A DNA stretch of 64,000 nucleotides from a virus: positions 15,833 through 79,832 of IMG/VR virus record IMGVR_UViG_3300046005_001038. The stretch is one strand, 5' to 3'. Both the position numbers and the translations under genes were made by a program. This document shows, piece by piece, positions 18,796-63,947 of the stretch (position 1 is its first letter; every line of letters begins with the position of its first letter). The notes under the pieces are model-generated. The model had not been told where the DNA came from. It searched no databases and was given only the letters and a program-made list of their open reading frames with translations.

Positions 18796-21700
18796 TTACT
18801 TGTTTCCTTGTGGTTGAATCAATTGAATCGAGTTTGTCATTTGTAACTTCGTTTTGTTTAATTAATGTTCGGAAAGCTGCTTGCATGACTTCAATTTGTG
18901 CTTGCAACAGTTTGTTTTGTGTTTTCAACTCAGCTAATTCTTCTTCATTATTACCTGAATCATTAGCGGCAATCGCTCTCACACCTAATGAACCATTTAT
19001 ATTGGCCAAAGGCATGATTGCTTCTGAACCTGATTCACCCATCAAGCCCATATTGAACACAGTGGGTTTAGACACAATGCCATTTGTGAATGCACCGCCT
19101 GATGCAAAATAACCATTTGTAGAGAAATACCCATTTTTAGCATCCATATATTTTTCAAAATCTTGCCAACTACTAAGTCCTAGCTTGCGTAACATTCCTT
19201 CTACATCGGTGTAGTCACCATAATAACCTACATTTATCGCTTCACCTTCTAAGACGGAAGTTCCGTAATTAAAATATCTAGGTGTTAGTGTAGGTGTTGA
19301 CGTAGCAATATTAGAAGGAGGTATGCTTGGAATTACTGGTGATGGTACAACAGGTAATTCAGGTACAACTGCTGTAGGAATTTGAACTCCTACTGAAGCT
19401 CCCGCGTTAGCTGCATTTTGTGCAGTTATTTGTGCGCCGATTGCTTGTAATGCTGCTAAAGCTGCGTTGGCTGCGGCAACAATATCATTGATAGATTGAA
19501 TCAATGCTGAGGTATTAGCTGCTGGAAATACCATTACTGGAATTTCAATATCTGAGAAAGTTTCGATAATTCTAGCTAGCTCATCTTTTAAAGCCGTACC
19601 GCCTCCAACACCAATACCTGCCATAAGTTCGTTAAACGCAAGTGCGAATTCGCTTTCAGGGTTTAATGTCAATTTAACATCTTCAACAAATGTTGCCAGA
19701 ATGCCTGTTGCAGAATCTAAAGCAGATGTCTCAGTATCTAACAATAGTTGGCTGATATTCAAAGCAGAAATCATGTCGGTCATACCTACGGAGATTGTAC
19801 CTAACACATCGGTCATTGTATCGGTTAATTCCGCAGTAGGAACTTCTATTTTGGTTTTAACAACGGCATTGTATTTATCTAACGCTTCAGATAGGTTTGT
19901 CATAAATGAAATTTTATCTTCATCTGACATTTCAGGTGTTGCAACCACACTTAATGTAGCAGTCGTGGTTAAAACTAGATTTTCGGCAGCTTTTGCTTTG
20001 ATTGAATCATTAAACGTACTTATTGCCACTAATACTGTGCTACTAATTGCTTTTTCAAACACATCTAACGCAGGAAGTTTTAACGAATCTGAAATTTCAG
20101 AGCTTGATTTTAATGTGTTATAAGCAGCGTAAGATTTCTCAATAGCATCGCCGATAACAGTACCTTTTAAAGCATCAGGTAGAGCGAAGATTCCTGTTTT
20201 AATATCTTCTAATAAATCAACCATTCGCAACTGCGGGTCAACTTGTTGTGGTAGCACACTTACAGCATCAATCACTTGTTGTATCAACTCATTACCTTCT
20301 TTAGACGAACCATAGAAGTTACGAATTGCAGTAATTGTTTGGTCTGCCGTACCTGTGATAGAACCTTCAATAGCTGATTTAATATCAGCAACTGTTTTTC
20401 CAGTATTAGCAATATCGGTTTGTGCCATATATTTATTAAGATTAGCAATTGTGTTTTTGTCAGTAATACCCGACATATCAATTGAACCCACACCCGTAGA
20501 TGATTTATAAGCTGATAATTGATACGCCAATTTACCTTGTGCTGTATCTAATTGTGACTTAGTAGAACCTAATTGTGTGATTTGTAATCCGATAGCCCAA
20601 TCAGCGATAGCGCGTCTAAAATCGCGTAATTGCTGTATTGATTTTGACAAATCAACTTTATTTAAATTATCAACATACATTTTGACCATTGCATCAGACT
20701 TTTTCAAAGTACCTTCAACACCAGAAATCGTTTCGTTTCCATACTTTTTAATCATGTCGTTTTTGTACTTTTCTAATGCAAGTACCTTTTTACCTGCTTC
20801 ATCAGCTAATGCGTATTTAGCATCGTAACCAGCTTGTTCTGCATCATCTAAGAATGATTTCGCCTTATTGATGTCACGAGTTAATTTCATGGTTTCGATG
20901 AATTCTTTCGCTGCACTAGATGCTTCTCCGAACACAGAATTGATTTCAGCGATTTGAATGTTAAATTCAACTAAGCTACGATTATATTCGTCTAAACCTG
21001 CAACAGCTAATGCGTTTGATAATTCTTTACGTTTATTAGCAATGTCTTGTGCTGTAGCTACTTTAACTTCTGTCAAACCCGATGCGTTTCTAGCATCTGT
21101 AATGGCTTTAGTTTGACGTAACATATCAATGTAGGTATTTGCCGCATCTGAACCTTCACCGAACATATCGTTAATCGCTTTAATATCTTTTCCTAATTGA
21201 TAATCTCCTTTTTGTGTATCAGACATTCCTGCTACTAATAAGTTATCCTTCAACTCATTGTATTTACCTGTAACTAAAGATTGCTCTTTTGCACGTTGTA
21301 AAATCAATATGTCGTTTATTTTAGTAGACGATTCATTATTCATTTCTCTAGCAATTCGCAATTCTTCAGCATTTTGCATCATCCGTTTGTTATATTCAGA
21401 TGTTAATTGATTTTCAGACGTAATCAAACTATCAATCGATAACTTTTGTTTTGCTGCATAGTCAGCTTTGTTTTTCGTATCAATCAATGCGTCGGAATAT
21501 GCTTTTAACGAGCGTTCAGTCACATTAACTGTTTCAGTAATACCGTAGAACTTCTTATCAGTTTCAGATAACGTCGCGTTCCAACTAACGATGCTAGGTA
21601 ATAAATCGCTGTCGATTTGAGAAACTAAAGAACTAATATCTGTACCGATACTCAATTCAGTCAATGAATCTTTTGAAGCCTTAGCAGTCATGTAATCTTT

Positions 21701-24700
21701 AGACTTTGTAGTCGATAAAATTACATCTGTAATTTTTAACACAGATTGTTGTCTTTCTAACACAGTTTGTAATGTTTCTGTAGAATCAATTAAGCCTGAT
21801 ACGACTTTGTTGATGCCTTCTGATTGTGACGTAAGATTATTCATCCAATAATCCATCACCTCAAGTTGTGTTGACGTATCTTTAATTGATAGAATCGTAC
21901 TAACTTGTTTCAATAAATCATTAAATATCGGATTAGATTTATCGATTTTAAACGTACTTGCGATAAATGCTTCAGGATTCTCTTTAGCAGTAGTAAGCTG
22001 TTGTAAACGAGTTTCGTTTTTATCAAACATAGATAGCATACTTGTCACAAACAATCCGTTTGCACCAGTTTGATTATCCAACTTACCTTTGATTTCATCT
22101 AAATCTGACTTTTTAATATCCGATGTTTTCAAATTCATCAATGCGTCAACAGAACCTTTAGCGAATCGGTCTGCCCATTTCTGAACACGCTCTGAGTCAA
22201 AACCCGCCATGTCTTGGGGTAATAATGCTTTAAGACTAGACGTGCCTGTTAATAGATTTTGTAATGTGGTAGAATTTTCATTCACACTTTTGAAAGTTGC
22301 ATCAATTGACTTTTTCAAATCTAAATTATTCAAATCTGTGTTCACAGTGGTGATATTGTAACCTGGTGAAACAGAGAACATTTTTGAATAGTTTTCAATG
22401 TTACTTACAATACGAGTTTCATTGTCTTTTAACACTTTACTGAACGTATTGAAGAACGCTGTGTCTTTAGTAACGTCTTTTTTATTTTTAGCATCTAAGT
22501 CAGAGAGTTTTAAATCAACAATCTTACTTACATCACCACCTGTGTATTTATTAGCATAGGCTTTTGCGTAAGTAGCATTTGTTTTTTCTAAATCACTACC
22601 TGTCACAGAAGATTCTGTAATTTTAAAGTCAGTTGGAGCTTTAGTTGTGAGTGAATTGAGCAATGTAATCTGATTATTGATATTAGTAAAAATCTCACTT
22701 AGACCTTTATTCGCAATATCAAATTTTTCACCTTTAGACGTTACGACATTAAAGAATTTGTCAATAGCTGACGTAAAGTTTTTCAAACCATCATTTGCTT
22801 TACCTGTTGAATCGTACATTTGAATCAACTGCTCAGACATAATTGCAAAACCTAACGTGCCTAAATTTTTACTTTCTACACCGAGGTCTTTGAATTTTTC
22901 ATTAACTTGGTTAATATCAATCGCAACTCGCGTTAAGGTTTCAAATGCGCCTTCACCCATGCGTTTAAATCTATCTAAGAATCCATTAGTCACATCATCT
23001 GCAATTAAATCGAATGTTGTGTTTAACGAATCACTTACTTTTTTCGTAATAGCATCAGATTTCAAACCTTTCAAATCTAATTTTATTTTAGGAATAATCG
23101 CTTTAGTATCGCTTACTACTTGCAATCCTAAGATGTTCAAAGATTTAGATAGTTCTGTTGAAAAATAACCAAACACACCTTTAAATGAATTTGTCATTTC
23201 ATTATTAACACCATTGATAGTGTCATAAATCTTAACTGTGTCTGAGAACCAACCTTTAGTTGTCGCTTTTATTTTTGAATAATCATAAACTTTTAGCGCG
23301 TCAGCAGCTCCGCCAATGATGAATTGGTTAGCTTGCATTGTAATACCTGAACCAATTGCTTCAAATTTAGTTTTACCGATACCTAATAATTTACCTAAAC
23401 CAAATTGTAATCCCGCTAAAATTAATCCACCAGCAAGTCCTATGATAGCTCCCCCAACCATCATCCCTGTTGAACCAACCCCCACTCCAACAGAAGTGGC
23501 AGTCCCCATACCTACCGCAGTTGCGGCAGACGCAGCTAATGCACCACCAGCAAGCCCCATACCAGCAGCTCCCATCGCAGTTGATGAAACCAAACCAGCT
23601 CCAATCATACCAGCAGAACCCGCAGGATTTTTAGAACTTGCTGTCATTCCAGTAGTAGAACCAATCCAACCACCTTGTCTGTTTACCGCTAACGAGATTG
23701 TGTTATCAACTGCCTTTGTGATATTTTTAAATCCATCCGCAATATCGCGTAATGCACCGTATTCTTTCACATGGATAGATTGCAATGTATTTGTGATATT
23801 ATCGACTGAGCGAGAAGATTCTGACGATGCTCCGTACACAGAGCTAGTAAAAGCCGATTCAGGTGTTGAAGTGTCTACAGGTTTAGTTTTGAAAAGCGTT
23901 TGCATTAAACTAATCGCCATTCCACCAATCATTGCTGCTCCACCAGCTAACCAGTTTCCTGACATCATCGCATTCATACCGATGTTCATTAAACTTGAGC
24001 TAATATTAGACACAAGGTTTTTAAACATATCGCGAAACGCATCAGTAAAGGATTTACCTTTAGTCAACACATCTGTGAACATGGTTGTAAAACCTGATGT
24101 AATTGAACCTGTCACAGTATCTTTAACAGAGGTTAATAGTTTTAGATTTTCTCTCGTATCAATCAAATCTCTAATTTCTTGTGCCTGTGTTCCTGTCGCT
24201 CCTGCTTGTTTGATTTTAGACTGTTTTTCTAACTCTAATGTAGAAGTTGTCAAAGAGGTTAGTAAATCGTCATTACCTTTAATTAAATCAGGTATAACAT
24301 TACGTTGTTGTTCTTTTAGTGATAATTGAATACGATATAAGTCAGTAATTTCTTTATTCTTAATAAGAAGTTCAGAATCTGTATCAAGCAACATAGTTTC
24401 AGTATCTACTCTCATTGCAGCGTAAGCAGAATTTCCAGTTTGTTTGAATAATTTTTCATATTCATCAGCCATATCTGTTAATTCTTTTTTGGTTGCTGAT
24501 AATTCATCACGCAATTTTAATTGCTCTTTAATCGAACTATCTATTGCAGGAACAGCGAATCCACCGAGTTCTTTAGCTAAATCTTTTGCTTTTAGTGACA
24601 CATCTTGACGTTCTCGCAATTCATCAAACGCATGACTATAAGCATACCCAGCTTTTTCTAGCTTTAATAAATCTTGAAGTTCACCAGCTCTACGACTACG

Positions 24701-27700
24701 CTCTGTATCAGCAATTTCATTCGCTTTAATGTATGCTTGGTCTTGCCAACCAATTTGTTTTCTAATTAAAGTTAATTGTTTATCTAATTCTTCAGCTCTT
24801 TTAGCATCTGACTTTAAAATAGCTTCATTGCGTTGTTTCTTGACTTCATCAAACTCAGCCAATCTTGATTGTAATGTAACGAATTCTTGTGATGCTTTTA
24901 CTTGTGATTCTGAACCTCCCATTCTGCCCATTACTAGAGGAACATAATCTTTTGTTTCAGGTCGAAGATGTGACATCCAATCTTTACCATCAACTTTTGA
25001 TTTTTCTATTACTGATTTAACTCGATTTTCACCAGCGTTGTATCCCGCTAGTGCTTTAGTTAAATCACCGTCAAACATTTTCAATAATTGATTTAGATAT
25101 TTGTTAGCAGCTTTCACGGCTTGCTCAGGGTCATAAGCATCTATGCCGAAACCTTTAGCTGTAGCTGGCATAAATTGCATCAATCCCATTGCACCTGCTC
25201 TTGAAGTAGCGTTTGCTATACCTCGTGATTCTTGTGCTGCAACAGCTCTTAGCAATTCTGGAGAAACTTGACCTGAAGCATATTTTTGAAATAAAGGATT
25301 GTACTTGTCTAATCTTTTTACTGTATCCTCAGTATCAACAACAGCTTTGATTTTGATAGGATTTTTAACAGAATGTAACTCGACCTGTTTATTGACTTTT
25401 TCTAATTCTTGCTTTAACCATTCATCATCTACTTGGATTTTAGGTGTGAGTGATTCGAGAGTTGATTTTGCTTCTCTGGCTGATTTGTCTGCTGCTTCTT
25501 TTGCTAAATCAGCTTCTACTTTCGCAGCAGCTTTATTTCTAGCATCAGCTACCATTTCAGGAGCTTTGACTGATAAAAAGTCATAGTATTCTGTTGTACC
25601 GACAGTACCTGCTTTTTCTTTTAATTGTTTTGGTAAGAAATTGTATGTTTTATCTAATAAATCATTTGTTTCTTTTTTAATGCGGAAAAGTTTATCGTTT
25701 GCTTGTGTAAGCTCTTTTGTTTTCTCTATCTCTTGCGATAATGCTTTACCGAAAGCCGTTTTAATATCTAATTGTTCTACTTGAAGTTTATTCAACCCTT
25801 GTGTACGTTTTGCTTCGGCTATTTTTTCTTCTTCATTGATACTGTCGATTTCCTTTTGTTTTTTTAACTGCTCATCTAATAAAGCTCTCTCGGCTAATAA
25901 TTTAGATTTATCATACACTCCTATCACATCAGAAACAGCAGTTCCTAAACGCGATTGTTTTTCGTGCGCGTTAATAGAACTATCTATTTCACGCATACGT
26001 TCAATTAGTTTTTGTTGTTCAGTTTTAGAAGCCTGTTCTTCTTGACTTTTAGAATAACCGTACATCCCAAGACCTGCAACTGCACCAACAGCTAAACCTA
26101 TAGGACTTCTACTCATTAAAGCCATACCCGCAGCCGCTTTTTCTGAATTTAATGCTACTGTAATTAAAGCTGCGCCTAATGCAGTTACTCCAGAAACTAA
26201 TAAATCCATGTGTTCGCCAATTGCTAACATGGATTTAAAGAATAAATCGCTGGCATGACTACCTTCGTTCATTCTTCCGACGAATTTAGTAAAATAAGTT
26301 TCTACTTCAGTAAAACCTTGTGCAAATGTTTTATGCGTTTTTTCAAAAGTTTTATTTATCTCATCGTTACCTAAAAGGATAGCTTTAAAAAACGCTTCAG
26401 ATGTTATTTTTCCATCATACATAGCATTTCTTAAATCAGCTATTGTTTTAATGTGTGTTGGTGAGTTTTTAATAGCTTCTATTTCAGCAGCAGTCGCTCC
26501 TCGTAAAGCAGCTTCTTCTAATTTTATTGTTTTAGCTGCTTCATCATAATGTTTAACTACAATTCCCATCACATTAGGCATACTATCAAGAATAGACTTA
26601 AACTCTTGACCTCTGACCGTCACACCGCCTAACGCTTGTTCTAACTGTAACAAGCCACCTCTAACTGCATTAGGGCTTGTACCCATGATAGCCAGAGCTT
26701 TTGTTACTGTGTCAATAGCCTTTACTGTATCGGATTGAGTAGCGTTAAGTGACTCGGAAGCTCTTGACATTCTTAAATACAATGTAGTAATAGAGTCTAA
26801 TGGAGCGCGAGCATCGACAGCAAGTTTAAACAATCTTTCTTGCATACCAGCCGCATTACCTGTCTTTTCAGTAGCGATGCCTACAGCATTGGTAAAATGT
26901 GTCCAATGGTCAGCGTATTCCATAATCTGACGACCTGACATTGCTACACCAACCATCATTAAGGTTTGTTGAAGTTTGTTTAGACTGTTTGAGAGTTCGT
27001 TGATGACTGATGTTTGGTTACCTGAACCTGTTTGACGACTTTGTGAAATTAACTGTTGTTGACGATATGCTAAGTTATCTGCTTCTTGTCTACGAATTTC
27101 AGCTTCTATTCTAGCTGAATCTGAAAATCTAGTTTGATTTTGAACATTAACACTTCCCATTTGAGAAGTCATTGAAGATAAACGTGGTGGAACATAGGTA
27201 GATGATTGTGACATCGCAGCAGTCATCGCGTGAGTGTGTGCAATTTTATCAGCAAGAATAGCAGCATCAATTTCTTTTAATGTTTGTCTACGCGCTCTCC
27301 ATGCAGCAAGTTCTCTTTCCATATCAGTTTGAATAGCTTGTTCGTATGCAGAGTTATAACTACGTTGGTCAGACAACTCTTTATCTTTTCTAGCTTTTTC
27401 ATCAGCCATATATTTTAAATGAATCGCTCCTAATTCATTATAATGATTATCAATCTGTTTTTTAGCGTCTAAATATCCTTTTAAATCTCTCTCCCACTCT
27501 TTATAGTTCACACCGTCTGACGCGCGAGTAGCAGCTACATTAGGTCTATCGGTAGCCATTTTGTTATATTCAGCAGTAACAACTACTGACGCTTTAACTG
27601 AGTTTTGTAATTGTGTATTTATTTCCCTAGAGATGTTAGCTACTTGCTGACCTATATTTTTGTTATCTATCAGCAAACCAATGATAATTTCTTTGTGACT

Positions 27701-28048
27701 AATATCAGCTATTAAAGAATTTATTTTCGATACAGATTCGCTTACCTTTTTTACTGTAGCGTCCATCGACTTAGAAATCTTTTCAACATTATCAATATCA
27801 ACTGTTATTTTAATTGGCTTTTCTAATTCCTTTTTATTCTTATTGATTTTTTCTTCGACACCAGCTAAAGGATTCGTATCAAATGATTTAAATTTTAATT
27901 CAATATCATTGATTGCTTTTAAAGTCTTTTCTAACGCGCTAAGATTAGTATTTGCGGTAGCCGCTTTCTCGCCCACACTCTGTAACGTACTACTCGCATT
28001 ATCCGTTACTTTAACTTCAATACTGACGCTATTATCGATTTCTGACAT
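18788..28048 (-). CDS. Tape measure protein (3086 aa) with SLT lytic transglycosylase domain
   Basis: Tape-measure domain (YAD.W…QLEQALG…GQEF.SI). SLT motifs AVAAQES, AGAMGLMQFMPATA, ALAGYNAG at about 24930-25300. C-terminal FASGG…GESGSEAIMPL. Confidence 0.93.
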   Translation of the reverse strand: MSEIDNSVSIEVKVTDNASSTLQSVGEKAATANTNLSALEKTLKAINDIELKFKSFDTNPLAGVEEKINKNKKELEKPIKITVDIDNVEKISKSMDATVKKVSESVSKINSLIADISHKEIIIGLLIDNKNIGQQVANISREINTQLQNSVKASVVVTAEYNKMATDRPNVAATRASDGVNYKEWERDLKGYLDAKKQIDNHYNELGAIHLKYMADEKARKDKELSDQRSYNSAYEQAIQTDMERELAAWRARRQTLKEIDAAILADKIAHTHAMTAAMSQSSTYVPPRLSSMTSQMGSVNVQNQTRFSDSARIEAEIRRQEADNLAYRQQQLISQSRQTGSGNQTSVINELSNSLNKLQQTLMMVGVAMSGRQIMEYADHWTHFTNAVGIATEKTGNAAGMQERLFKLAVDARAPLDSITTLYLRMSRASESLNATQSDTVKAIDTVTKALAIMGTSPNAVRGGLLQLEQALGGVTVRGQEFKSILDSMPNVMGIVVKHYDEAAKTIKLEEAALRGATAAEIEAIKNSPTHIKTIADLRNAMYDGKITSEAFFKAILLGNDEINKTFEKTHKTFAQGFTEVETYFTKFVGRMNEGSHASDLFFKSMLAIGEHMDLLVSGVTALGAALITVALNSEKAAAGMALMSRSPIGLAVGAVAGLGMYGYSKSQEEQASKTEQQKLIERMREIDSSINAHEKQSRLGTAVSDVIGVYDKSKLLAERALLDEQLKKQKEIDSINEEEKIAEAKRTQGLNKLQVEQLDIKTAFGKALSQEIEKTKELTQANDKLFRIKKETNDLLDKTYNFLPKQLKEKAGTVGTTEYYDFLSVKAPEMVADARNKAAAKVEADLAKEAADKSAREAKSTLESLTPKIQVDDEWLKQELEKVNKQVELHSVKNPIKIKAVVDTEDTVKRLDKYNPLFQKYASGQVSPELLRAVAAQESRGIANATSRAGAMGLMQFMPATAKGFGIDAYDPEQAVKAANKYLNQLLKMFDGDLTKALAGYNAGENRVKSVIEKSKVDGKDWMSHLRPETKDYVPLVMGRMGGSESQVKASQEFVTLQSRLAEFDEVKKQRNEAILKSDAKRAEELDKQLTLIRKQIGWQDQAYIKANEIADTERSRRAGELQDLLKLEKAGYAYSHAFDELRERQDVSLKAKDLAKELGGFAVPAIDSSIKEQLKLRDELSATKKELTDMADEYEKLFKQTGNSAYAAMRVDTETMLLDTDSELLIKNKEITDLYRIQLSLKEQQRNVIPDLIKGNDDLLTSLTTSTLELEKQSKIKQAGATGTQAQEIRDLIDTRENLKLLTSVKDTVTGSITSGFTTMFTDVLTKGKSFTDAFRDMFKNLVSNISSSLMNIGMNAMMSGNWLAGGAAMIGGMAISLMQTLFKTKPVDTSTPESAFTSSVYGASSESSRSVDNITNTLQSIHVKEYGALRDIADGFKNITKAVDNTISLAVNRQGGWIGSTTGMTASSKNPAGSAGMIGAGLVSSTAMGAAGMGLAGGALAASAATAVGMGTATSVGVGVGSTGMMVGGAIIGLAGGLILAGLQFGLGKLLGIGKTKFEAIGSGITMQANQFIIGGAADALKVYDYSKIKATTKGWFSDTVKIYDTINGVNNEMTNSFKGVFGYFSTELSKSLNILGLQVVSDTKAIIPKIKLDLKGLKSDAITKKVSDSLNTTFDLIADDVTNGFLDRFKRMGEGAFETLTRVAIDINQVNEKFKDLGVESKNLGTLGFAIMSEQLIQMYDSTGKANDGLKNFTSAIDKFFNVVTSKGEKFDIANKGLSEIFTNINNQITLLNSLTTKAPTDFKITESSVTGSDLEKTNATYAKAYANKYTGGDVSKIVDLKLSDLDAKNKKDVTKDTAFFNTFSKVLKDNETRIVSNIENYSKMFSVSPGYNITTVNTDLNNLDLKKSIDATFKSVNENSTTLQNLLTGTSSLKALLPQDMAGFDSERVQKWADRFAKGSVDALMNLKTSDIKKSDLDEIKGKLDNQTGANGLFVTSMLSMFDKNETRLQQLTTAKENPEAFIASTFKIDKSNPIFNDLLKQVSTILSIKDTSTQLEVMDYWMNNLTSQSEGINKVVSGLIDSTETLQTVLERQQSVLKITDVILSTTKSKDYMTAKASKDSLTELSIGTDISSLVSQIDSDLLPSIVSWNATLSETDKKFYGITETVNVTERSLKAYSDALIDTKNKADYAAKQKLSIDSLITSENQLTSEYNKRMMQNAEELRIAREMNNESSTKINDILILQRAKEQSLVTGKYNELKDNLLVAGMSDTQKGDYQLGKDIKAINDMFGEGSDAANTYIDMLRQTKAITDARNASGLTEVKVATAQDIANKRKELSNALAVAGLDEYNRSLVEFNIQIAEINSVFGEASSAAKEFIETMKLTRDINKAKSFLDDAEQAGYDAKYALADEAGKKVLALEKYKNDMIKKYGNETISGVEGTLKKSDAMVKMYVDNLNKVDLSKSIQQLRDFRRAIADWAIGLQITQLGSTKSQLDTAQGKLAYQLSAYKSSTGVGSIDMSGITDKNTIANLNKYMAQTDIANTGKTVADIKSAIEGSITGTADQTITAIRNFYGSSKEGNELIQQVIDAVSVLPQQVDPQLRMVDLLEDIKTGIFALPDALKGTVIGDAIEKSYAAYNTLKSSSEISDSLKLPALDVFEKAISSTVLVAISTFNDSIKAKAAENLVLTTTATLSVVATPEMSDEDKISFMTNLSEALDKYNAVVKTKIEVPTAELTDTMTDVLGTISVGMTDMISALNISQLLLDTETSALDSATGILATFVEDVKLTLNPESEFALAFNELMAGIGVGGGTALKDELARIIETFSDIEIPVMVFPAANTSALIQSINDIVAAANAALAALQAIGAQITAQNAANAGASVGVQIPTAVVPELPVVPSPVIPSIPPSNIATSTPTLTPRYFNYGTSVLEGEAINVGYYGDYTDVEGMLRKLGLSSWQDFEKYMDAKNGYFSTNGYFASGGAFTNGIVSKPTVFNMGLMGESGSEAIMPLANINGSLGVRAIAANDSGNNEEELAELKTQNKLLQAQIEVMQAAFRTLIKQNEVTNDKLDSIDSTTRKQVNG

Positions 28049-30939: not shown

Positions 30940-31067
30940 ATTGTATATCTCCAATAGTTATGTTAAAATTTTATTGCCTAATTGCAATACACGCGATAAT
31001 AGCATAGTGATTGGAAGATGTCAAGTTTTTTGTTGTATTTTATTTTGTTTGGTGATAGGAGTTGAAA

Positions 31068-31910
31068 ATGGAAGAAAGATTACATTGTATCTATATGATT
31101 ACGAGTCCGAATGGTAAAAGTTATGTTGGACAAACGATGAACTTTGAAAAAAGAATGCGGGAACATAATAAAACGACTAGCGGTTGTTTAGCTATCCGAG
31201 ATGCTATTTTAAAATATGGTTTTGAAAATATGAAAGTTGAAATCTTATTGAAGAACTTAACGATTGATGAAGCTAATAAGTATGAAGAATTTTATATTAA
31301 AGAACACGGTACTTTATCTCCAAATGGATATAATCTAAGAGAAGGTGGTTTAAATCATACTTTGTCGGATGAAATTAAGAGAAAGATTGGAGATAAGAAT
31401 AGAGGGAGAATTAAAACGCCTGAACAAATAGAAGCGAATAGGCAGAAATTATTAGGTAGGAAAAGCAGTGATGAAGCTAGATTAAAAATATCAATTGCTT
31501 TAAAAGGTGTACCTAAATCAGAAGAACATAAAGAGAAAACTAGACAATCTCATATTGGAATGAAAGCGAGTGAAGAAGCTAAGAAGAATATGTCTTTAGT
31601 TCATTTAGGAAAACCATTAGCTAAAGAAATAGTAGAGAAATTATCTAAAATAAGAGATGAAAAATTATTCAATAAAGAGTTCCCACACTATTTAGCTAAC
31701 ATTTCTAATTTACCCGACGATACTGAATTTAGCACTAAAGAATTAGCAGATTTGTTAAATCTAACAAAAGGTACTTTAACTAAAAGAGTTATCAGAGGTA
31801 ATTTTCCTAACAGTTACCATACATTCGTTAAAGGAGGTAAAAAGTATTTAATACCGATTAAAGACGTTCATGATTTTTATACAAAAAATAACCTCTCGGT
31901 ATTGAACTAG
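31068..31910 (+). CDS. GIY-YIG homing endonuclease with NUMOD3 repeats and C-terminal HTH
   Basis: CIY…KSYVGQT, PNGYNLREGG, SEEHK/SEEAK repeats, STKELADLLNL. Inserted antisense in the tail operon. Confidence 0.85.
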   Translation: MEERLHCIYMITSPNGKSYVGQTMNFEKRMREHNKTTSGCLAIRDAILKYGFENMKVEILLKNLTIDEANKYEEFYIKEHGTLSPNGYNLREGGLNHTLSDEIKRKIGDKNRGRIKTPEQIEANRQKLLGRKSSDEARLKISIALKGVPKSEEHKEKTRQSHIGMKASEEAKKNMSLVHLGKPLAKEIVEKLSKIRDEKLFNKEFPHYLANISNLPDDTEFSTKELADLLNLTKGTLTKRVIRGNFPNSYHTFVKGGKKYLIPIKDVHDFYTKNNLSVLN

Positions 31911-40261: not shown

Positions 40262-41320
40262 TTAAGATTCTTGTGTAATTAAACGAGCAATGTTGACTTG
40301 TTTGCGTTCAGGGTAACGACGCGACCAGTTAGCAGCAGTCGCTAATGCAGTATTACTTGCACCGCCTTCTGTAGCAGTACCGATGTACGAAGTACCTTCA
40401 GGTGCAACCACAAATTCTTGACGACTGTATAAGGTTTCAATACCACCACCATTACCGCCGTTAGGAGCGCGGAACACTTCACTAGGAATACGAGGAGAAC
40501 CCATACCTAATTGTAATGCACCACTACCTAAGATGTAAGTGTAGTATTTACCAGCCAATCCTGTACCAGAAACACCTGCTGGCATCATATTATCAGACAC
40601 AACTTCCATATCCATAAATGTTGGAATGTTACGTTTTTCTTGTGAATCAGGTACAAAAGTAATCATGTTACGTTTTAACATACGCGCATATACAACAGGG
40701 TGTACTAACAATGTACGCAAACCATCCGCACTATCACCCATTGTTGCTAAGGTATCAATCAACAATTCAGCAGAGAAACGAGTTGTATCACTTGCTGATT
40801 GTGGTGTACCTGAAGGCAAACCTGTGTTTGTTGAAGCATCATAAGTTAAATCATATTGTGTATGCGTATCTGAACCTGATGCCGCAGCATCGTTATCAGC
40901 AAATACACCTGCTAAGGTAGCAAGGAATGTTTTTTGTAAATCCCAAGCCCAATAAGATGCTACACGGTCACCAATACCTTTTAACGGGTCTGCACCTGTT
41001 AAATCTGCTGCTAAATCAGCAGCAGTCCATGATTGGTTTCTGCTCAAGCGTTGTTGAACGATTGACGCGCCTGTAATTGCATTCGGAGTAGAAGTAGCGG
41101 TATCATCTGAACTCGATACGTTAGATACGTTACGAACTAAATCTTTGTAGAAAGGCATTGTTACAATGTTACCGCCACCAGACAAGAAATTGTCTAAGAA
41201 GCCTGAACGTGCAACAGCACCTGATTGAATGAGTTTTGATTTTTCTTGTGTGCGTAAGAACACATACGGATTAAATACTTGTGGTACTAATAACGCTGTA
41301 CTTAAAGTTGCGACTGCCAT
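40262..41320 (-). CDS. Major capsid protein
   Basis: P.VF.PY, S.LIQSG, MPFY.DL, W…DLA..L.G.DP…IG.RVA.YW, L.SR…V.P.G. Follows the scaffold gene. Confidence 0.9.
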   Translation of the reverse strand: MAVATLSTALLVPQVFNPYVFLRTQEKSKLIQSGAVARSGFLDNFLSGGGNIVTMPFYKDLVRNVSNVSSSDDTATSTPNAITGASIVQQRLSRNQSWTAADLAADLTGADPLKGIGDRVASYWAWDLQKTFLATLAGVFADNDAAASGSDTHTQYDLTYDASTNTGLPSGTPQSASDTTRFSAELLIDTLATMGDSADGLRTLLVHPVVYARMLKRNMITFVPDSQEKRNIPTFMDMEVVSDNMMPAGVSGTGLAGKYYTYILGSGALQLGMGSPRIPSEVFRAPNGGNGGGIETLYSRQEFVVAPEGTSYIGTATEGGASNTALATAANWSRRYPERKQVNIARLITQES

Positions 41321-41371: not shown

Positions 41372-41425
41372 TTGCCCATGCAAGTAATTGAAAGTTAATT
41401 GTGTATTGTATCTACCCATGTAGAT
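41372..41425 (-). promoter_or_regulatory. Tandem AUGG-loop hairpins in the capsid mRNA leader
   Basis: AUCUAC-AUGG-GUAGAU and UUGC-AUGG-GCAA, downstream of a TTGACT-17-TAGCAT promoter. Confidence 0.55.
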
Positions 41426-41502
41426 TTATCGCTGTATGCTACACGAAAAGTATTTAAAAGTCAAGCATTATTTAGTGTAGATGTCAAATTTATTTTCGAT
41501 GA

Positions 41503-41661
41503 ATAAAAAGAAACCCTTTAACAGTTTTAATTATTAAAGGGTCGAGTGTAGGAGGACTAAAAATGAGAACAAACCAAGACTATGAAATCTTATTAAAAAC
41601 TCTGTTTAGAATTCTTAATAAGATTATCTTATCTATTGCTAGAAAAAGATAATCTTAACTG
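41503..41661 (-). ncRNA. Candidate ~155-nt small RNA with anti-Shine-Dalgarno motifs
   Basis: Own promoter (TTGACA-17-AATAAT, 41668-41696), two hairpins, ACCUCC and UCAUUUUUAGUCCUCCU motifs, intrinsic terminator 41503-41542. Confidence 0.5.
41563..41652 (+). CDS. Possible 29-aa cationic amphipathic peptide antisense to the sRNA
   Basis: AGGAGG RBS 7 nt before the ATG. MRTNQDYEILLKTLFRILNKIILSIARKR. No clear + strand promoter. Confidence 0.3.
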   Translation: MRTNQDYEILLKTLFRILNKIILSIARKR

Positions 41662-41700
41662 GAGGTAATTATTTCACACTATAATCACAGTGTCAAGCAT

Positions 41701-42480
41701 TTATTTAGCTTGTTTAGATAATCTTTCCGCTAAGGTCGGGTTCTCTGTCCACATCTGTGCTTGTTCAGTTAAATTACCTGTCGCAAAAGGATTGTTGCCT
41801 TTATACGCTCCATTACCACCTTTTGCACCACCACCTACGTTATCACCCCAGTAATAAGGGTTACTTGCTTGTTGTTCACTTAACCACACTTCAAATGGCA
41901 TATAACCTGTCACACCGTTGATACCGTCTTTCGTTAAGAATTTACCATCATCAGTTTCTGTGAATAAGCGTTCTGCTTTCATTAGCACGGTTTCTTCAAA
42001 ACGAGGGTCAATTTTAGCAGCTTTGATTTTAGCCACAAATTCATCATTCATTCGACGTTGACGGTCTACTTGTTCAAAGTACGCAACACGCTGTTCTAAT
42101 TCAGCCGCTTTCTTAGAAATTGCATCACGTTCAGCCATCAAAGGTTGTGTTTGACTTTTTGCGCGTGCATTTGCCATTTCTTCTAACTTAGCTACATCTA
42201 CCGTAGAACCTTTCGCTAATTCTTCTAATTCAGCGATTCTCGCTAATTGTGCTTGTACAGATTCAGGGTCTAATTCGCCAAAATGTGATAACTTCGCTTT
42301 GACTTGTTTGTGGTCATTGCGTTCTTTTTCTAATGCGCCTTGCACTTTCGTGAATTCACTTAACGGTTTCACACCTGCTACATCCAACACATATTTGCTA
42401 CCATCAGCCGTTGGTGTGTAGAATGAATGTAGTGTTTCATCTAATGAATCTAAACTTGTAATTTCGTATTCTAATGCCAT
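41701..42480 (-). CDS. Capsid scaffolding protein
   Basis: Y…DG.KY.LDV.G, ALEKER, coiled coil, GGGAKGG…NPF…NLTEQ C-terminus. Confidence 0.85.
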   Translation of the reverse strand: MALEYEITSLDSLDETLHSFYTPTADGSKYVLDVAGVKPLSEFTKVQGALEKERNDHKQVKAKLSHFGELDPESVQAQLARIAELEELAKGSTVDVAKLEEMANARAKSQTQPLMAERDAISKKAAELEQRVAYFEQVDRQRRMNDEFVAKIKAAKIDPRFEETVLMKAERLFTETDDGKFLTKDGINGVTGYMPFEVWLSEQQASNPYYWGDNVGGGAKGGNGAYKGNNPFATGNLTEQAQMWTENPTLAERLSKQAK

Positions 42481-42538: not shown

Positions 42539-42614
42539 GGTAAGTTGAGTCTTTTATTATCCTGTGTCTACTCAGCACAGTTCGATGCAACTTGTTATAC
42601 TGTCGTGCTTCAGT

Positions 42615-44120
42615 TCAATCTCCGTTAATCGGGTCATTATTCACAGTAACACGGTCAACATTCATCGATGCTGTCGGTTGTTGTACTCCGTTACTTGAAT
42701 TATCAGGAACTTCTATCGGAGGAGATAAGTCATCCTCTTTCATTAACTTACGTTCTTCTTCATAACTAAGTTTCGTATAACCTTGGTCTTTAAGAATTGT
42801 ATGAACTGTTTTATCAGCTAACGGTAATAAGCCTGTATTTTTAGCAGCAATCAACTGTGCAAAGTCTTGACCTTTCATATCTTTGTCAGAGAACTGTAAG
42901 TTAGGAATAACTTCAACTTTTGAATCATCTAATCCCATCCATCTAGCACACTTCTTCAACAATTCTTCGAGTGCATAAGCAGATGTGACAGCAACTTGAT
43001 TTAAGTTAGCCGTTTGTGCAGCCATACGAATTTTAAGTGCGTCACCTGATTCTTGTTTAGAATTTCCATTCATCAACTGACCAGCTTTTGTCACAGCCGC
43101 TTGTTTATCGTTCTCAATTGCTTGACGCATTTCAGCCAAACCAGATGAACTCACACCGATAAACTTCGCATCACCACCCATATCAACATCAATTCTTGCA
43201 CCTGCGCCAACACGAGTTGCTTCGTCTTGTCCATGACTAATACCACCTACCACAACTAAGGTATCTTGTCCTTGCATATACAAAGTGTGACGATAATCCG
43301 CTTCAGCCCGATAGATGGCAAGTGATAGATTCGCTAAACCTAATAACGGTGGTACATCAGGTGTCGCTAAAATATCTTTCGAGTTAGCGAACACAAAGGG
43401 GATTTCATTTAAGGATTGACCACGATAAATAGGTGTCACGAAGGATTCTAACGTAGGATTTTCGTTTGAATAGTTCATCACAGATTGTGAATATGTTGCA
43501 TTCTGATAATCTTCTTCATTCACATTAAAATCACCTAACGCTAAGAACCGATAGCGAGGTTGTTCTGACCATGACACCCCTTGTCGCATCCATGTGGTTT
43601 CGTCCAACACAACTAAGTTAAGGGCATTAAATCCTACGTTGTCAGAACCTTCATCCCAATTGACGATGTTTTCTGCATTGTACATTGCAATATACGGATT
43701 ACCACTACCACTTGAGTCAATATCTAGCAATAAACCTACACGACCTGTAATGAACTGTTGTGAATGAATTCTACGCAATAAATGGTCTAAATTATCACCG
43801 TTAATCGTCGCTTTAGTACGCAAGAATTCCATTTCTGGCGGTAATTTGATTTGTGTCGGTCTATAGTGTAACAATCCGATATAACTTTCGACTGCATCAT
43901 GCACAAAGTTGTGATAGACAGCGCGTTTCTTATAAGATTCATAGGACTTATAACCATCTTCACTAACACTCATTCCATCTAAAACTTGACCGCCTGTAGC
44001 AGGTAAATACGTCTGTCCTTTAGATTTAACTTGTTTCTCACCTTTGTAACAATCACGCATAATCAACCAATCTTCGATTGATTCATCATATAGCGGATGT
44101 GTTGAAACTGTGCTTGTCAT
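42615..44120 (-). CDS. Portal protein (DUF4055 type)
   Basis: HP.Y….W..MRD.Y.GE..VK..G..YLP, Y..RA…N, GRVGLL.D, Y.AE.I.NW, PPLL.LA.L.LA.YR..ADY. Confidence 0.92.
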   Translation of the reverse strand: MTSTVSTHPLYDESIEDWLIMRDCYKGEKQVKSKGQTYLPATGGQVLDGMSVSEDGYKSYESYKKRAVYHNFVHDAVESYIGLLHYRPTQIKLPPEMEFLRTKATINGDNLDHLLRRIHSQQFITGRVGLLLDIDSSGSGNPYIAMYNAENIVNWDEGSDNVGFNALNLVVLDETTWMRQGVSWSEQPRYRFLALGDFNVNEEDYQNATYSQSVMNYSNENPTLESFVTPIYRGQSLNEIPFVFANSKDILATPDVPPLLGLANLSLAIYRAEADYRHTLYMQGQDTLVVVGGISHGQDEATRVGAGARIDVDMGGDAKFIGVSSSGLAEMRQAIENDKQAAVTKAGQLMNGNSKQESGDALKIRMAAQTANLNQVAVTSAYALEELLKKCARWMGLDDSKVEVIPNLQFSDKDMKGQDFAQLIAAKNTGLLPLADKTVHTILKDQGYTKLSYEEERKLMKEDDLSPPIEVPDNSSNGVQQPTASMNVDRVTVNNDPINGD

Positions 44121-63560: not shown

Positions 63561-63629
63561 ATAAAATTAGACGATAGTTTGGTTAGGTTACTCGACTATC
63601 GTTCAAAATAGACCTACTGGAGAACAAAA

Positions 63630-63947
63630 ATGATGCAATTGAGAAAGAAAAAAGAACCTGTTTATAACGCAGTAAAATTTACAGGAACTAATGTGGATGA
63701 AGTATTGAAATTAGTCGGTGATGAATTCTCTGTGTGTTATCTACCTGAGTATCAGATTAGATTGACTAAGCGAAGCGGTAACTTCTCAACTATTCTACGA
63801 GAAGGCTATTATCTTGTGGTAGAAGGTAAATCTGTTAAACCATTCTCCATTGAGAAATTACTTGATAAGTTTGAAGCAATATGGGAGTGTGACCAAGAAT
63901 TACTCTCCGAACACATGGATGTTAAAAATAAATACCGAGAGATTTGA
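63630..63947 (+). CDS. Conserved phage protein
   Basis: RKK…AV.FTG.N..EV, G.Y.V, F...FE motif. GGAG RBS. Confidence 0.65.
   Translation: MMQLRKKKEPVYNAVKFTGTNVDEVLKLVGDEFSVCYLPEYQIRLTKRSGNFSTILREGYYLVVEGKSVKPFSIEKLLDKFEAIWECDQELLSEHMDVKNKYREI

What the first reader, a model, noticed from the sequence alone, without database searches (positions are those of the whole stretch)
41503..41696. Stand-alone small RNA with two anti-Shine-Dalgarno motifs, antisense to a 29-aa amphipathic ORF
Seen: between scaffold and capsid genes, a strong promoter (TTGACA-17-AATAAT) and an intrinsic terminator enclose ~155 nt with no credible sense ORF. The RNA begins near ACCUCC, folds two hairpins, and exposes UUCUCAUUUUUAGUCCUCCU, the complement of a generic AGGAGG…AAAAUGAG start region resembling many early-gene starts here (e.g. 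4313-4332, 63619-63632). The opposite strand reads as a perfect RBS plus MRTNQDYEILLKTLFRILNKIILSIARKR. Inference: either a trans-acting translational repressor sRNA (early or host shut-off) or a type I toxin-antitoxin-like pair.
Basis: partly seen in the sequence, partly recalled or inferred. Interest (0 to 1): 0.7.

Follow-up and report, generated by a model that had tools for sequence, protein, structure and literature searches.

The report
Phage small RNA with anti-ribosome-site seed
Between the scaffold and capsid genes of an uncultured 80-kb lake phage sits a small non-coding RNA gene with its own promoter, kept in four related phage lineages, whose exposed stretch mirrors a ribosome-binding site plus start codon, so it probably blocks translation of still unknown messages.

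Summary
On the minus strand, a near-consensus extended -10 promoter (41696-41668) and an intrinsic terminator (41543-41503) enclose about 155 nt with no credible sense ORF. The RNA folds into three hairpins, a 31-nt unpaired stretch and the terminator.

The same cassette lies at the same place in three further phage lineages (types A, B and C). Their promoter hexamers are invariant while the spacers have diverged. Their stems keep pairing through compensatory and G·U changes. All keep an unpaired CAU-N(3-10)-CUCC module: one in the window and type C, three in types A and B.

The antisense ORF is 29, 17, 12 and 8 aa in the four lineages, without conserved sequence or frame, so a toxin-antitoxin reading is not supported. 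The 5' ACCUCC lies between the -10 element and the likely start, so only one anti-SD motif is secure in this window.

A relative without the promoter and RNA body still has the terminator. The RNA therefore shares the scaffold operon's terminator, like 3'-UTR sRNAs with their own promoter.

No specific phage target stands out, the host is unknown and no RNA data exist. A sub-threshold likeness to the cyanobacterial sRNA PsrR1 is probably convergence.

The parts
41668..41696 (-). Promoter P1. The -35 element TTGACA is at 41696-41691. The extended -10 element TGaAATAAT is at 41676-41668. It begins 4 nt after the scaffold stop codon (41701-41703).
   Evidence: Both elements are identical in types A, B and C, while the 14-nt spacer differs at half or more of its positions. 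It is one of about ten promoters of this type in the genome.
41505..41661 (-). Predicted sRNA of about 155 nt. The start at 41662-41660 is inferred from the -10 position. The 3' end lies in the U tail.
   Evidence: There is no sense ORF. No Rfam family reaches its threshold.
41575..41657 (-). Three hairpins of the RNA body, at 41657-41619, 41618-41593 and 41592-41575.
   Evidence: MFE and centroid folds: -39.9 kcal/mol, against -22.4±3.1 for shuffles. The sequence of this part is poorly conserved between lineages, but each lineage has hairpins here. In types A and B, 49 predicted pairs include none broken and two double compensatory changes.
41544..41574 (-). Unpaired seed region. It contains CAU-N7-CCUCCU (41565-41550), the mirror image of AGGAGG-N7-AUG.
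   Evidence: Unpaired probability 0.85. A homologous CAU-N-CUCC module lies just 5' of the terminator in types A, B and C.
41503..41543 (-). Intrinsic terminator: 12-bp stem, 8-nt loop, UUUCUUUUUAUU tail. It is shared with the scaffold operon.
   Evidence: All lineages have a hairpin of -13 to -14 kcal/mol followed by a U tract, with different stem sequences. A lake variant carries a different hairpin in front of the same tail (loose end at 41515). The relative L078/L300 has stop codon, terminator and P2 without P1 or an RNA body.
41563..41652 (+). Antisense 29-aa ORF preceded by AGGAGG (41550-41555). Judged not to be a gene.
   Evidence: The antisense ORFs are 17, 8 and 12 aa in types A, B and C, with no shared sequence or frame.
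41436..41464 (-). Promoter P2 of the capsid gene (TTGACT-17-TAGCAT). It is context, not part of the sRNA.
   Evidence: It is conserved in types A, B and C and in L078.

Best explanation
This is a real, independently transcribed small non-coding RNA gene of the phage.

- Host sigma-70 RNA polymerase starts at P1, directly behind the scaffold gene.
- Transcription stops at the terminator that also ends the portal-scaffold transcripts. The RNA is therefore of the 3'-UTR type with its own promoter.
- The RNA carries structured 5' hairpins. Just before the terminator hairpin it has an unpaired pyrimidine-rich stretch, CAU-N(7-10)-CUCC(U), that mirrors a Shine-Dalgarno sequence plus start codon.
- Most likely this seed base-pairs in trans with translation-initiation regions of one or more mRNAs, of the host or of phage early genes, and blocks ribosome binding.

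Shown by sequence and comparison: the transcription signals, the conserved structure, the conserved exposed seed, and the lack of a conserved ORF on either strand.

Inferred: that the RNA is made, that it acts in trans, that it acts by pairing, and which messages it hits.
For: 1. The promoter scores 11/12 with a TG extension, and a terminator lies 147 nt downstream. It is the only clean non-coding promoter-to-terminator unit found in the genome.
2. The cassette is conserved at the same position in types A and B (capsid 61% identical) and in type C (L251, capsid 48% identical). The -35 and extended -10 elements are invariant while the spacers have diverged.
3. Between the window and type C, the seed, terminator, P2 and capsid leader are 79% identical in DNA over 253 nt. 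The whole alignment across scaffold gene, intergenic region and capsid start is 67% identical, and the proteins are 48-52% identical.
4. In six type A/B variants, 49 predicted pairs include none broken, two double compensatory changes and several one-sided changes to G·U. Indels fall in unpaired regions.
5. The seed is unpaired: probability 0.85-0.94, and about 1 for the hairpin loop in types A and B.
6. CAU-plus-anti-SD modules occur 3 times in types A and B against 0.10-0.16 expected (0 of 1000 shuffles reach this). They occur once in the window and in type C against 0.03-0.04 expected (P 0.03-0.04).
7. The antisense ORF is not conserved.
8. The seed pairs better than shuffled seeds with the phage's own start regions: early genes -13.8 against -11.9±0.7 kcal/mol.
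Against: - No transcript has been observed.
- No specific target was found. The best phage duplex is -23.0 kcal/mol, while shuffled seeds reach -23.6±2.7. The top targets in the window phage and in a type A relative are not orthologous.
- The host is unknown, so host targets could not be tested.
- The seed region has indels between lineages, and the spacing between CAU and CUCC varies from 4 to 10 nt. This fits a generic rather than a specific partner, or relaxed constraint.
- Anti-SD words alone are not enriched over dinucleotide shuffles in the window RNA (P 0.35).
- Every CAU/CUCC module is equally an AUG/GGAG module on the other strand, so the module statistics alone do not choose the strand.
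Confidence: 0.45

Rival explanations
1. The element acts only in cis. The terminator insulates the portal-scaffold transcripts from the capsid unit. P1 is an auxiliary promoter whose transcripts partly read through to raise capsid expression, or it is a lambda PR'-6S-tR'-like promoter, short RNA and terminator awaiting an antiterminator. The RNA itself has no trans function.
For: - The relative L078/L300 has terminator plus P2 without P1 or an RNA body, so the terminator has an operon role of its own.
- The RNA body 5' of the seed diverges fast. It is not alignable at 80% in lake variants, which carry 345 other letters in place of 352, and blastn does not align it between the window and types A/B.
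- No target was found.
Against: - A conserved second promoter, P2, follows the terminator in every lineage, so P1 is not needed for capsid transcription.
- All terminators are strong, at -13 to -14 kcal/mol with 5-7 U.
- Stems are kept by compensatory change, and an exposed seed is kept, which a mere spacer would not need.
- The cassette sits in the middle of the late gene block, not at its head.
- No Q-type antiterminator family is among the 25 of 27 matched Pfam families that were listed.
Confidence: 0.2
2. The RNA works by binding a protein rather than mRNAs. Its repeated unpaired pyrimidine-rich modules would act as a sponge or decoy for a host factor that binds such RNA, for example ribosomal protein S1, Rho or a cold-shock protein.
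For: - Types A and B have three exposed CU-rich modules, one displayed in the loop of a perfect 9-bp hairpin.
- Copy number varies between lineages, from one to three modules. Variant L075 has an extra CCU insertion.
- No specific mRNA target was found.
Against: - No protein-binding consensus is known to match.
- The regular CAU at 3-10 nt 5' of each CUCC word is what pairing to start regions predicts. Pyrimidine-binding proteins would not require it.
Confidence: 0.1
3. The RNA is a phage copy or mimic of the cyanobacterial sRNA PsrR1. In the host, PsrR1 blocks the start regions of photosystem I and antenna mRNAs such as psaL (PMC6596454). The phage would then be a cyanophage that turns down photosystem synthesis.
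For: - The Rfam PsrR1 model aligns end to end (positions 1-79) to 41510-41594 on the minus strand, ending at the terminator. The score is 21.8 bits, with E 0.05 for the 271-nt region against all families and 0.0035 for this family against the whole phage.
- A model built from 22 genuine PsrR1 genes gives its best hits in 146 kb at exactly the sRNA loci: window 25.9 bits (E 0.007), type A 18-20 bits.
- Local alignment to the PsrR1 of Chroococcus scores 52.5. The null maximum is 38.1±4.0, and 1 of 200 shuffles reaches the observed score.
- Type A modules pair with psaL start regions as well as native PsrR1 does, at the 1st-2nd percentile.
- Phage GC is 36%, like low-GC freshwater cyanobacteria, and GATC, GGCC and CCGG are strongly avoided.
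Against: - The score is far below the family threshold of 42 bits. Against all Rfam families over the whole phage, such a hit is expected by chance.
- Type C, the lineage whose seed, terminator and capsid-leader region is most like the window's, scores only 9.7 bits, and type B scores 14-15 bits. The likeness is therefore not a family trait.
- The window seed pairs only moderately with psaL (4th-26th percentile).
- The phage has no cyanophage hallmark genes.
- The best phage relatives of the capsid and of RNR-beta infect Pseudomonas and Vibrio.
- 401 Cyanobacteriales genomes gave no capsid homologue and no spacer-like DNA match.
- The promoter is a plain sigma-70 consensus.
Confidence: 0.1
4. 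The plus-strand 29-aa ORF is a real gene. It would be a small amphipathic peptide, possibly a type I toxin, and the minus-strand RNA would be its antisense regulator.
For: - The plus strand has a perfect AGGAGG-7-ATG and an open 29-codon frame.
- RBS-plus-ATG signals recur on the antisense strand of all lineages.
Against: - The peptides are 29, 17, 8 and 12 aa, with no shared sequence beyond M and N/K-rich starts. Types A and B differ by a 7-nt indel.
- The relatives' peptides are hydrophilic, not membrane-active.
- No conserved plus-strand promoter is evident.
- G·U pairs favour the minus-strand RNA.
Confidence: 0.05

Closest known systems
3'-UTR sRNAs with their own promoter (MicL, DapZ class of enterobacteria; from my own knowledge)
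   Same: The promoter lies at the very end of the upstream gene. The RNA shares that gene's intrinsic terminator. The conserved unpaired seed lies just 5' of the terminator hairpin and its U tail.
   Different: This RNA is phage-encoded, inside the head-gene cluster. Hfq dependence and targets are unknown. There is no sequence relation.
C/U-rich anti-SD sRNAs of Firmicutes (RsaE/RoxS, RNAIII; from my own knowledge)
   Same: They have several exposed pyrimidine-rich motifs, some in hairpin loops, that pair with Shine-Dalgarno sequences of many mRNAs.
   Different: Here each motif also has a CAU at start-codon distance. No Rfam family of any kind reaches its threshold.
PsrR1 (Rfam RF02701), cyanobacterial photosynthesis regulatory RNA (PMC6596454)
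   Same: The layout of the 3' domain is the same: a U-rich stretch, CAUU, a spacer, (G)U(U/C)CUCCUA, a few nt, then the terminator. PsrR1 blocks the RBS and start codon of psaL. The window RNA aligns full length to the model.
   Different: The score is 21.8 bits against a threshold of 42. The window RNA has a 4-nt gap against the model's conserved core. The likeness is absent in sister lineage C. The promoter type is different. A cyanobacterial host is not shown.
Late-expressed sRNAs of virulent phages: LUZ7 intergenic sRNA1-3 (PMC9163698) and PAK_P3 sRNA1/2 (PMC4933390)
   Same: They are short non-coding transcripts from intergenic regions of lytic phages, with their own start and terminator, and their function is still unknown.
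   Different: Those RNAs were seen by RNA-seq, while this one is only predicted. There is no sequence relation. This one has a recognisable anti-start-region seed.
Lambda PR'-6S RNA-tR' (from my own knowledge)
   Same: A strong constitutive promoter is followed by a short RNA and a terminator in front of late genes.
   Different: This cassette lies in the middle of the late block and is followed by a second promoter. No Q-like gene was seen.

Membership tests
Rfam PsrR1 (RF02701) | Covariance-model score at or above the gathering score of 42 bits | tested here: not met
   The window scores 21.8 bits. Types A and B are not reported for this family at E up to 10. Genuine PsrR1 genes score 42-78 bits.
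Rfam PsrR1 (RF02701) | The likeness is shared by the whole phage RNA family, as expected if it descends from PsrR1 | tested here: not met
   Scores with the custom PsrR1 model are: window 25.9, type A 18-20, type B 14-15 and type C 9.7 bits.
Rfam PsrR1 (RF02701) | The host is a cyanobacterium | tested here: inconclusive
   401 Cyanobacteriales genomes gave no capsid homologue and no spacer-like match. The phage has no cyanophage marker genes. Low GC and avoidance of GATC, GGCC and CCGG are compatible with such a host but not specific to it.
Rfam PsrR1 (RF02701) | The seed is complementary to psaL start regions | tested here: inconclusive
   The window seed reaches -14 to -20 kcal/mol (4th-26th percentile). 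Type A modules reach -22 to -27 (1st-5th percentile) on the three psaL leaders that native PsrR1 also pairs with. Native PsrR1 reaches -23 to -26 on those leaders. Any anti-SD RNA favours these strong-SD leaders.
Type I toxin-antitoxin pair | A conserved small hydrophobic or membrane-active toxin ORF opposite the RNA | tested here: not met
   The ORFs are 29, 17, 8 and 12 aa, with no conserved sequence or frame. The relatives' peptides are hydrophilic.
Type I toxin-antitoxin pair | An antisense RNA covering the toxin's RBS and start codon | tested here: met
   The minus-strand RNA covers 41550-41565. This follows trivially from the geometry.
Own-promoter 3'-UTR sRNA (MicL/DapZ class) | A promoter at the 3' end of the upstream gene, and a terminator shared with that gene's mRNA | tested here: met
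   P1 begins 4 nt after the scaffold stop codon. There is no other terminator between the scaffold gene and 41543. L078/L300 keeps the stop codon, terminator and P2 without P1. This rests on sequence only, and transcripts have not been seen.
Own-promoter 3'-UTR sRNA (MicL/DapZ class) | Chaperone (Hfq) dependence and trans targets | not testable with these tools
   The host is unknown and no RNA or protein data exist.
Lambda-type PR'-6S-tR' antitermination module | A Q-type antiterminator gene, and a position at the head of the late operon | tested here: not met
   No Q family is among the 25 of 27 matched Pfam families that were listed. The cassette lies between the scaffold and capsid genes and is followed by P2.

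The most novel reading that the evidence does not exclude
The RNA is a phage-borne functional mimic of the host's PsrR1. An uncultured freshwater cyanophage would express, from a constitutive promoter in its head-gene cluster, an sRNA that occupies the start regions of photosystem I and antenna mRNAs such as psaL. The virus would thereby reprogramme photosynthesis with an RNA rather than with the protein genes known from cyanophages.
Probability: 0.1. Interest if true: 0.8.

Novelty: new member of a known kind. Interest (0 to 1): 0.45.

Why it matters
Few sRNAs of lytic phages are known, and almost none has a mechanism. This candidate family has clean transcription signals, four lineages for comparison and a legible seed. 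That makes it a good test case for RNA-based control of translation by a virus, which would be the RNA counterpart of protein tools such as T4 RegB and RegA. It also shows how a phage can turn an operon terminator into an sRNA gene by adding a promoter. The family is abundant in lake metagenomes, but the host must be found before the idea can be tested.

Tried and rejected
The contigs behind the closest capsid relatives (P0002 at 88% and P0003 at 86%) could not be fetched.
I stopped it and used coordinates instead.

**RNA evidence**
- No RNA holder was listed for this DNA.
- Laying four lake DNA runs gave only contig pieces of relatives.

**Target search**
- RNAduplex of the seed against all start regions of the phage gave no outlier.
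- The same search in a 38-kb type A contig showed no shared orthologous target.
- blastn-short of the RNAs against both genomes gave only chance words. The longest was a 14-nt match of the type A seed to the start of a 182-aa gene of the window phage, at E 0.05.
- By-eye pairing to the capsid and scaffold start regions found at most 5-6 bp.

**Host search**
- A DNA search for spacer-like matches and a capsid search in 401 Cyanobacteriales genomes gave nothing usable.
- A Pfam scan of 100 phage proteins showed no host-telling gene.
- RNR-beta points to Pseudomonas phages at 43% identity.
- Cluster look-ups gave no names.

**Other**
- My early guess of an N4-like phage was wrong. The 3086-aa ORF is a tape measure protein with an SLT domain.
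- The NsiR1 hit in types A and B (24 bits) covers essentially only the terminator hairpin.
- Counting terminator pairs on alignment A7 was dropped because MAFFT misregistered the 5' arms.

Full report
**Setting**

The window is 64 kb of a complete 79.8-kb virus record found in lake-water metagenomes. It is a siphovirus. The 3086-aa ORF at 18788-28048 is a tape measure protein with a lytic transglycosylase domain. The nearest cultured capsids are below 50% identical and belong to Pseudomonas, Vibrio and enterobacterial siphoviruses. The late genes lie on the minus strand: portal 42615-44120, scaffold 41701-42480/42510 and capsid 40262-41320. The finding lies in the 380-nt gap between scaffold and capsid.

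**The observation**

Reading the minus strand:
- The scaffold stop codon is followed after 4 nt by TTGACA, a 17-nt spacer ending in TG-a, and AATAAT. This is an 11/12 match with a TG extension.
- An intrinsic terminator (12-bp stem, 8-nt loop, U-rich tail) follows 147 nt downstream of the predicted start.
- The sense strand between them has no ATG. It holds only TTG frames of 6 and 12 codons.
- The RNA folds far better than shuffles (-39.9 against -22.4±3.1 kcal/mol). It forms three hairpins, a 31-nt unpaired stretch and the terminator.
- The unpaired stretch contains CAU-N7-CCUCCU, with unpaired probability 0.85.
- The plus strand therefore reads AGGAGG-N7-ATG, followed by a 29-codon frame.

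ACCUCC directly follows the -10 hexamer, so a start at the usual 7±1 nt leaves it largely outside the RNA.

The promoter is one of about ten of the type TTGACA-N14-TGn-(-10) in this genome. They occur on both the early and the late strand, so host RNA polymerase should use it without a helper.

**Relatives**

Capsid searches and a promoter-pattern search brought in many contigs of two related lineages: type A and type B, with 61% capsid identity. A leader-pattern search brought in a fourth lineage, type C (L251), with 48% capsid and 52% scaffold identity. All four have the same layout: scaffold stop, P1, 150-210 nt of non-coding RNA, terminator, P2, a leader with small hairpins, then the capsid gene.
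- The -35 and extended -10 elements of P1 are identical in all four lineages, while the 14-nt spacers differ at half or more of their positions.
- Each lineage has a terminator hairpin of -13 to -14 kcal/mol followed by a U tract, with different stem sequences.
- A lake variant carries yet another hairpin in front of the same tail.
- Among six type A/B variants, 49 predicted pairs include none broken, two double compensatory changes and several changes to G·U. The indels fall in unpaired parts.
- G·U pairs would be C·A mismatches on the other strand, so the selected structure is that of the minus-strand RNA.
- Between the window and type C, the seed, terminator, P2 and leader are 79% identical in DNA over 253 nt. 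The whole alignment across scaffold, gap and capsid start is 67% identical.

**The seed**

Just 5' of the terminator, all lineages keep an unpaired CAU followed by a U-rich spacer and CUCC(U). Types A and B have two more such modules. One is unpaired near the 5' end, and one sits in the loop of a perfect 9-bp hairpin. Counting a CAU within 3-10 nt 5' of an anti-SD word gives the following:

| Lineage | Modules seen | Expected in dinucleotide shuffles | Significance |
|---|---|---|---|
| Types A and B | 3 | 0.10-0.16 | 0 of 1000 shuffles reach it |
| Window and type C | 1 | 0.03-0.04 | P 0.03-0.04 |

The same fact means that the other strand carries RBS-plus-ATG signals. The frames behind them are 29, 17, 8 and 12 codons, hydrophilic in the relatives, and shifted by indels. 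A peptide gene, and with it a type I toxin-antitoxin pair, is therefore not supported.

**Origin**

A relative with 54% capsid identity (L078/L300) has only the scaffold stop codon, about 25 nt, a terminator, P2 and the leader. More distant relatives have short gaps. The terminator is thus the ordinary end of the portal-scaffold transcripts. The sRNA arose, or was lost in some lines, through a promoter and RNA body placed in front of it. Functionally this is the layout of 3'-UTR sRNAs with their own promoter.

**Mechanism**

I looked for a partner.
- Against all start regions of the phage, the seed's best duplex is -23.0 kcal/mol. This is no better than the best of shuffled seeds, -23.6±2.7.
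- On average the seed pairs about 2 kcal/mol better than shuffles with early-gene starts, and about 1.4 better with late ones. This is the generic effect of an anti-SD word.
- In a 38-kb type A contig, the top predicted targets are not the orthologues of the window's top targets.
- The window's top target is a plus-strand 282-aa gene at 31062, which the relatives lack.

If the RNA pairs with specific messages, they are probably host messages, or the RNA acts broadly on strong-SD start regions. I keep pairing to start regions as the most likely mechanism, because the CAU at start-codon distance is what that mechanism predicts. It is an inference.

**The PsrR1 lead**

The only Rfam match of note is the cyanobacterial sRNA PsrR1. 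It aligns end to end and stops at the terminator, at 21.8 bits against a threshold of 42. I fetched genuine PsrR1 genes.

Points for the lead:
- The window RNA aligns to those of Chroococcus, Hydrococcus, Aphanothece and a Xenococcaceae genome better than nearly all shuffles. The best score is 52.5 against a null maximum of 38.1±4.0.
- A model built from 22 genuine genes places its best hits in 146 kb exactly on the phage sRNA loci.
- PsrR1 blocks the RBS and start codon of psaL (PMC6596454), and type A modules pair with psaL leaders as well as native PsrR1 does.

Points against the lead:
- Scores fall from the window (25.9) through type A (18-20) and type B (14-15) to type C (9.7). Type C is the lineage whose seed, terminator and leader are most like the window's.
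- The phage has no cyanophage marker genes.
- Its capsid and RNR-beta point to phages of Proteobacteria.
- 401 Cyanobacteriales genomes gave no supporting match.

I read the likeness as convergence of two anti-start-region sRNAs, and I leave about 10% for true mimicry.

**Limits**

- No RNA data exist for this phage.
- The host is unknown.

**Verdict**

This is a real and conserved phage sRNA gene that belongs to no filed family. The peptide and toxin reading fails. The repressor reading is plausible but unproven.

Noticed in passing
window 41410-41425 and 41372-41383 (minus strand); also L078, L082-L137: The capsid leader carries small hairpins with a (C)AUGG(G) loop and variable stems. The same kind of hairpin precedes the capsid gene in dozens of distant relatives of very different GC content. 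It looks like a widespread cis-regulatory RNA motif, perhaps an operator for a translational repressor.
   Followed up: partly
window 42541-42615 against L251: The portal-scaffold intergenic leader is 94.7% identical in DNA between the window phage and type C, although their scaffold proteins are only 52% identical. L251 has about 490 extra bases between this leader and its scaffold gene. Regulatory spacers seem to be exchanged, or to be far more constrained than the genes.
   Followed up: partly
whole genome G000 (79.8 kb) and G001: Short palindromes are avoided to an extreme degree. CCGG occurs 0 times (61 expected), GATC 5 (311), GGCC 2 (37), AAGCTT 0 (21), CAGCTG 0 (16.5) and GACGTC 0 (10). 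This points to a host rich in restriction systems.
   Followed up: no
L015/L044 (IMGVR_UViG_3300047200_000362, 40 kb): An unrelated viral contig has 16 exact matches to the promoter pattern GCTTGACA-N14-TGAAATAAT, listed across two loci that may overlap.
   Followed up: no
window 30460-56320, both strands: About ten promoters share TTGACA, a 14-nt spacer, TGn and an A/T-rich -10 hexamer. Several carry the identical TGAAATAAT (55583, 48218, 41696 and 28828 on the minus strand, 56320 on the plus strand).
   Followed up: partly
window 31062-31910 (plus strand): This is the only plus-strand gene inside the late minus-strand block. Types A and B lack it. It looks like an inserted moron. Its start region gives the best predicted duplex with the sRNA seed in this phage (-23.0 kcal/mol), which is not above chance.
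   Followed up: partly
G003, G005, G006, G013, G052, G064, G078, G101 and G139 (cyanobacterial genomes): Several Cyanobacteriales genomes hold 3-5 PsrR1-like loci scoring 28-78 bits, at least two of them above the Rfam threshold in each genome. PsrR1 therefore seems to be a small multigene family in these species.
   Followed up: no
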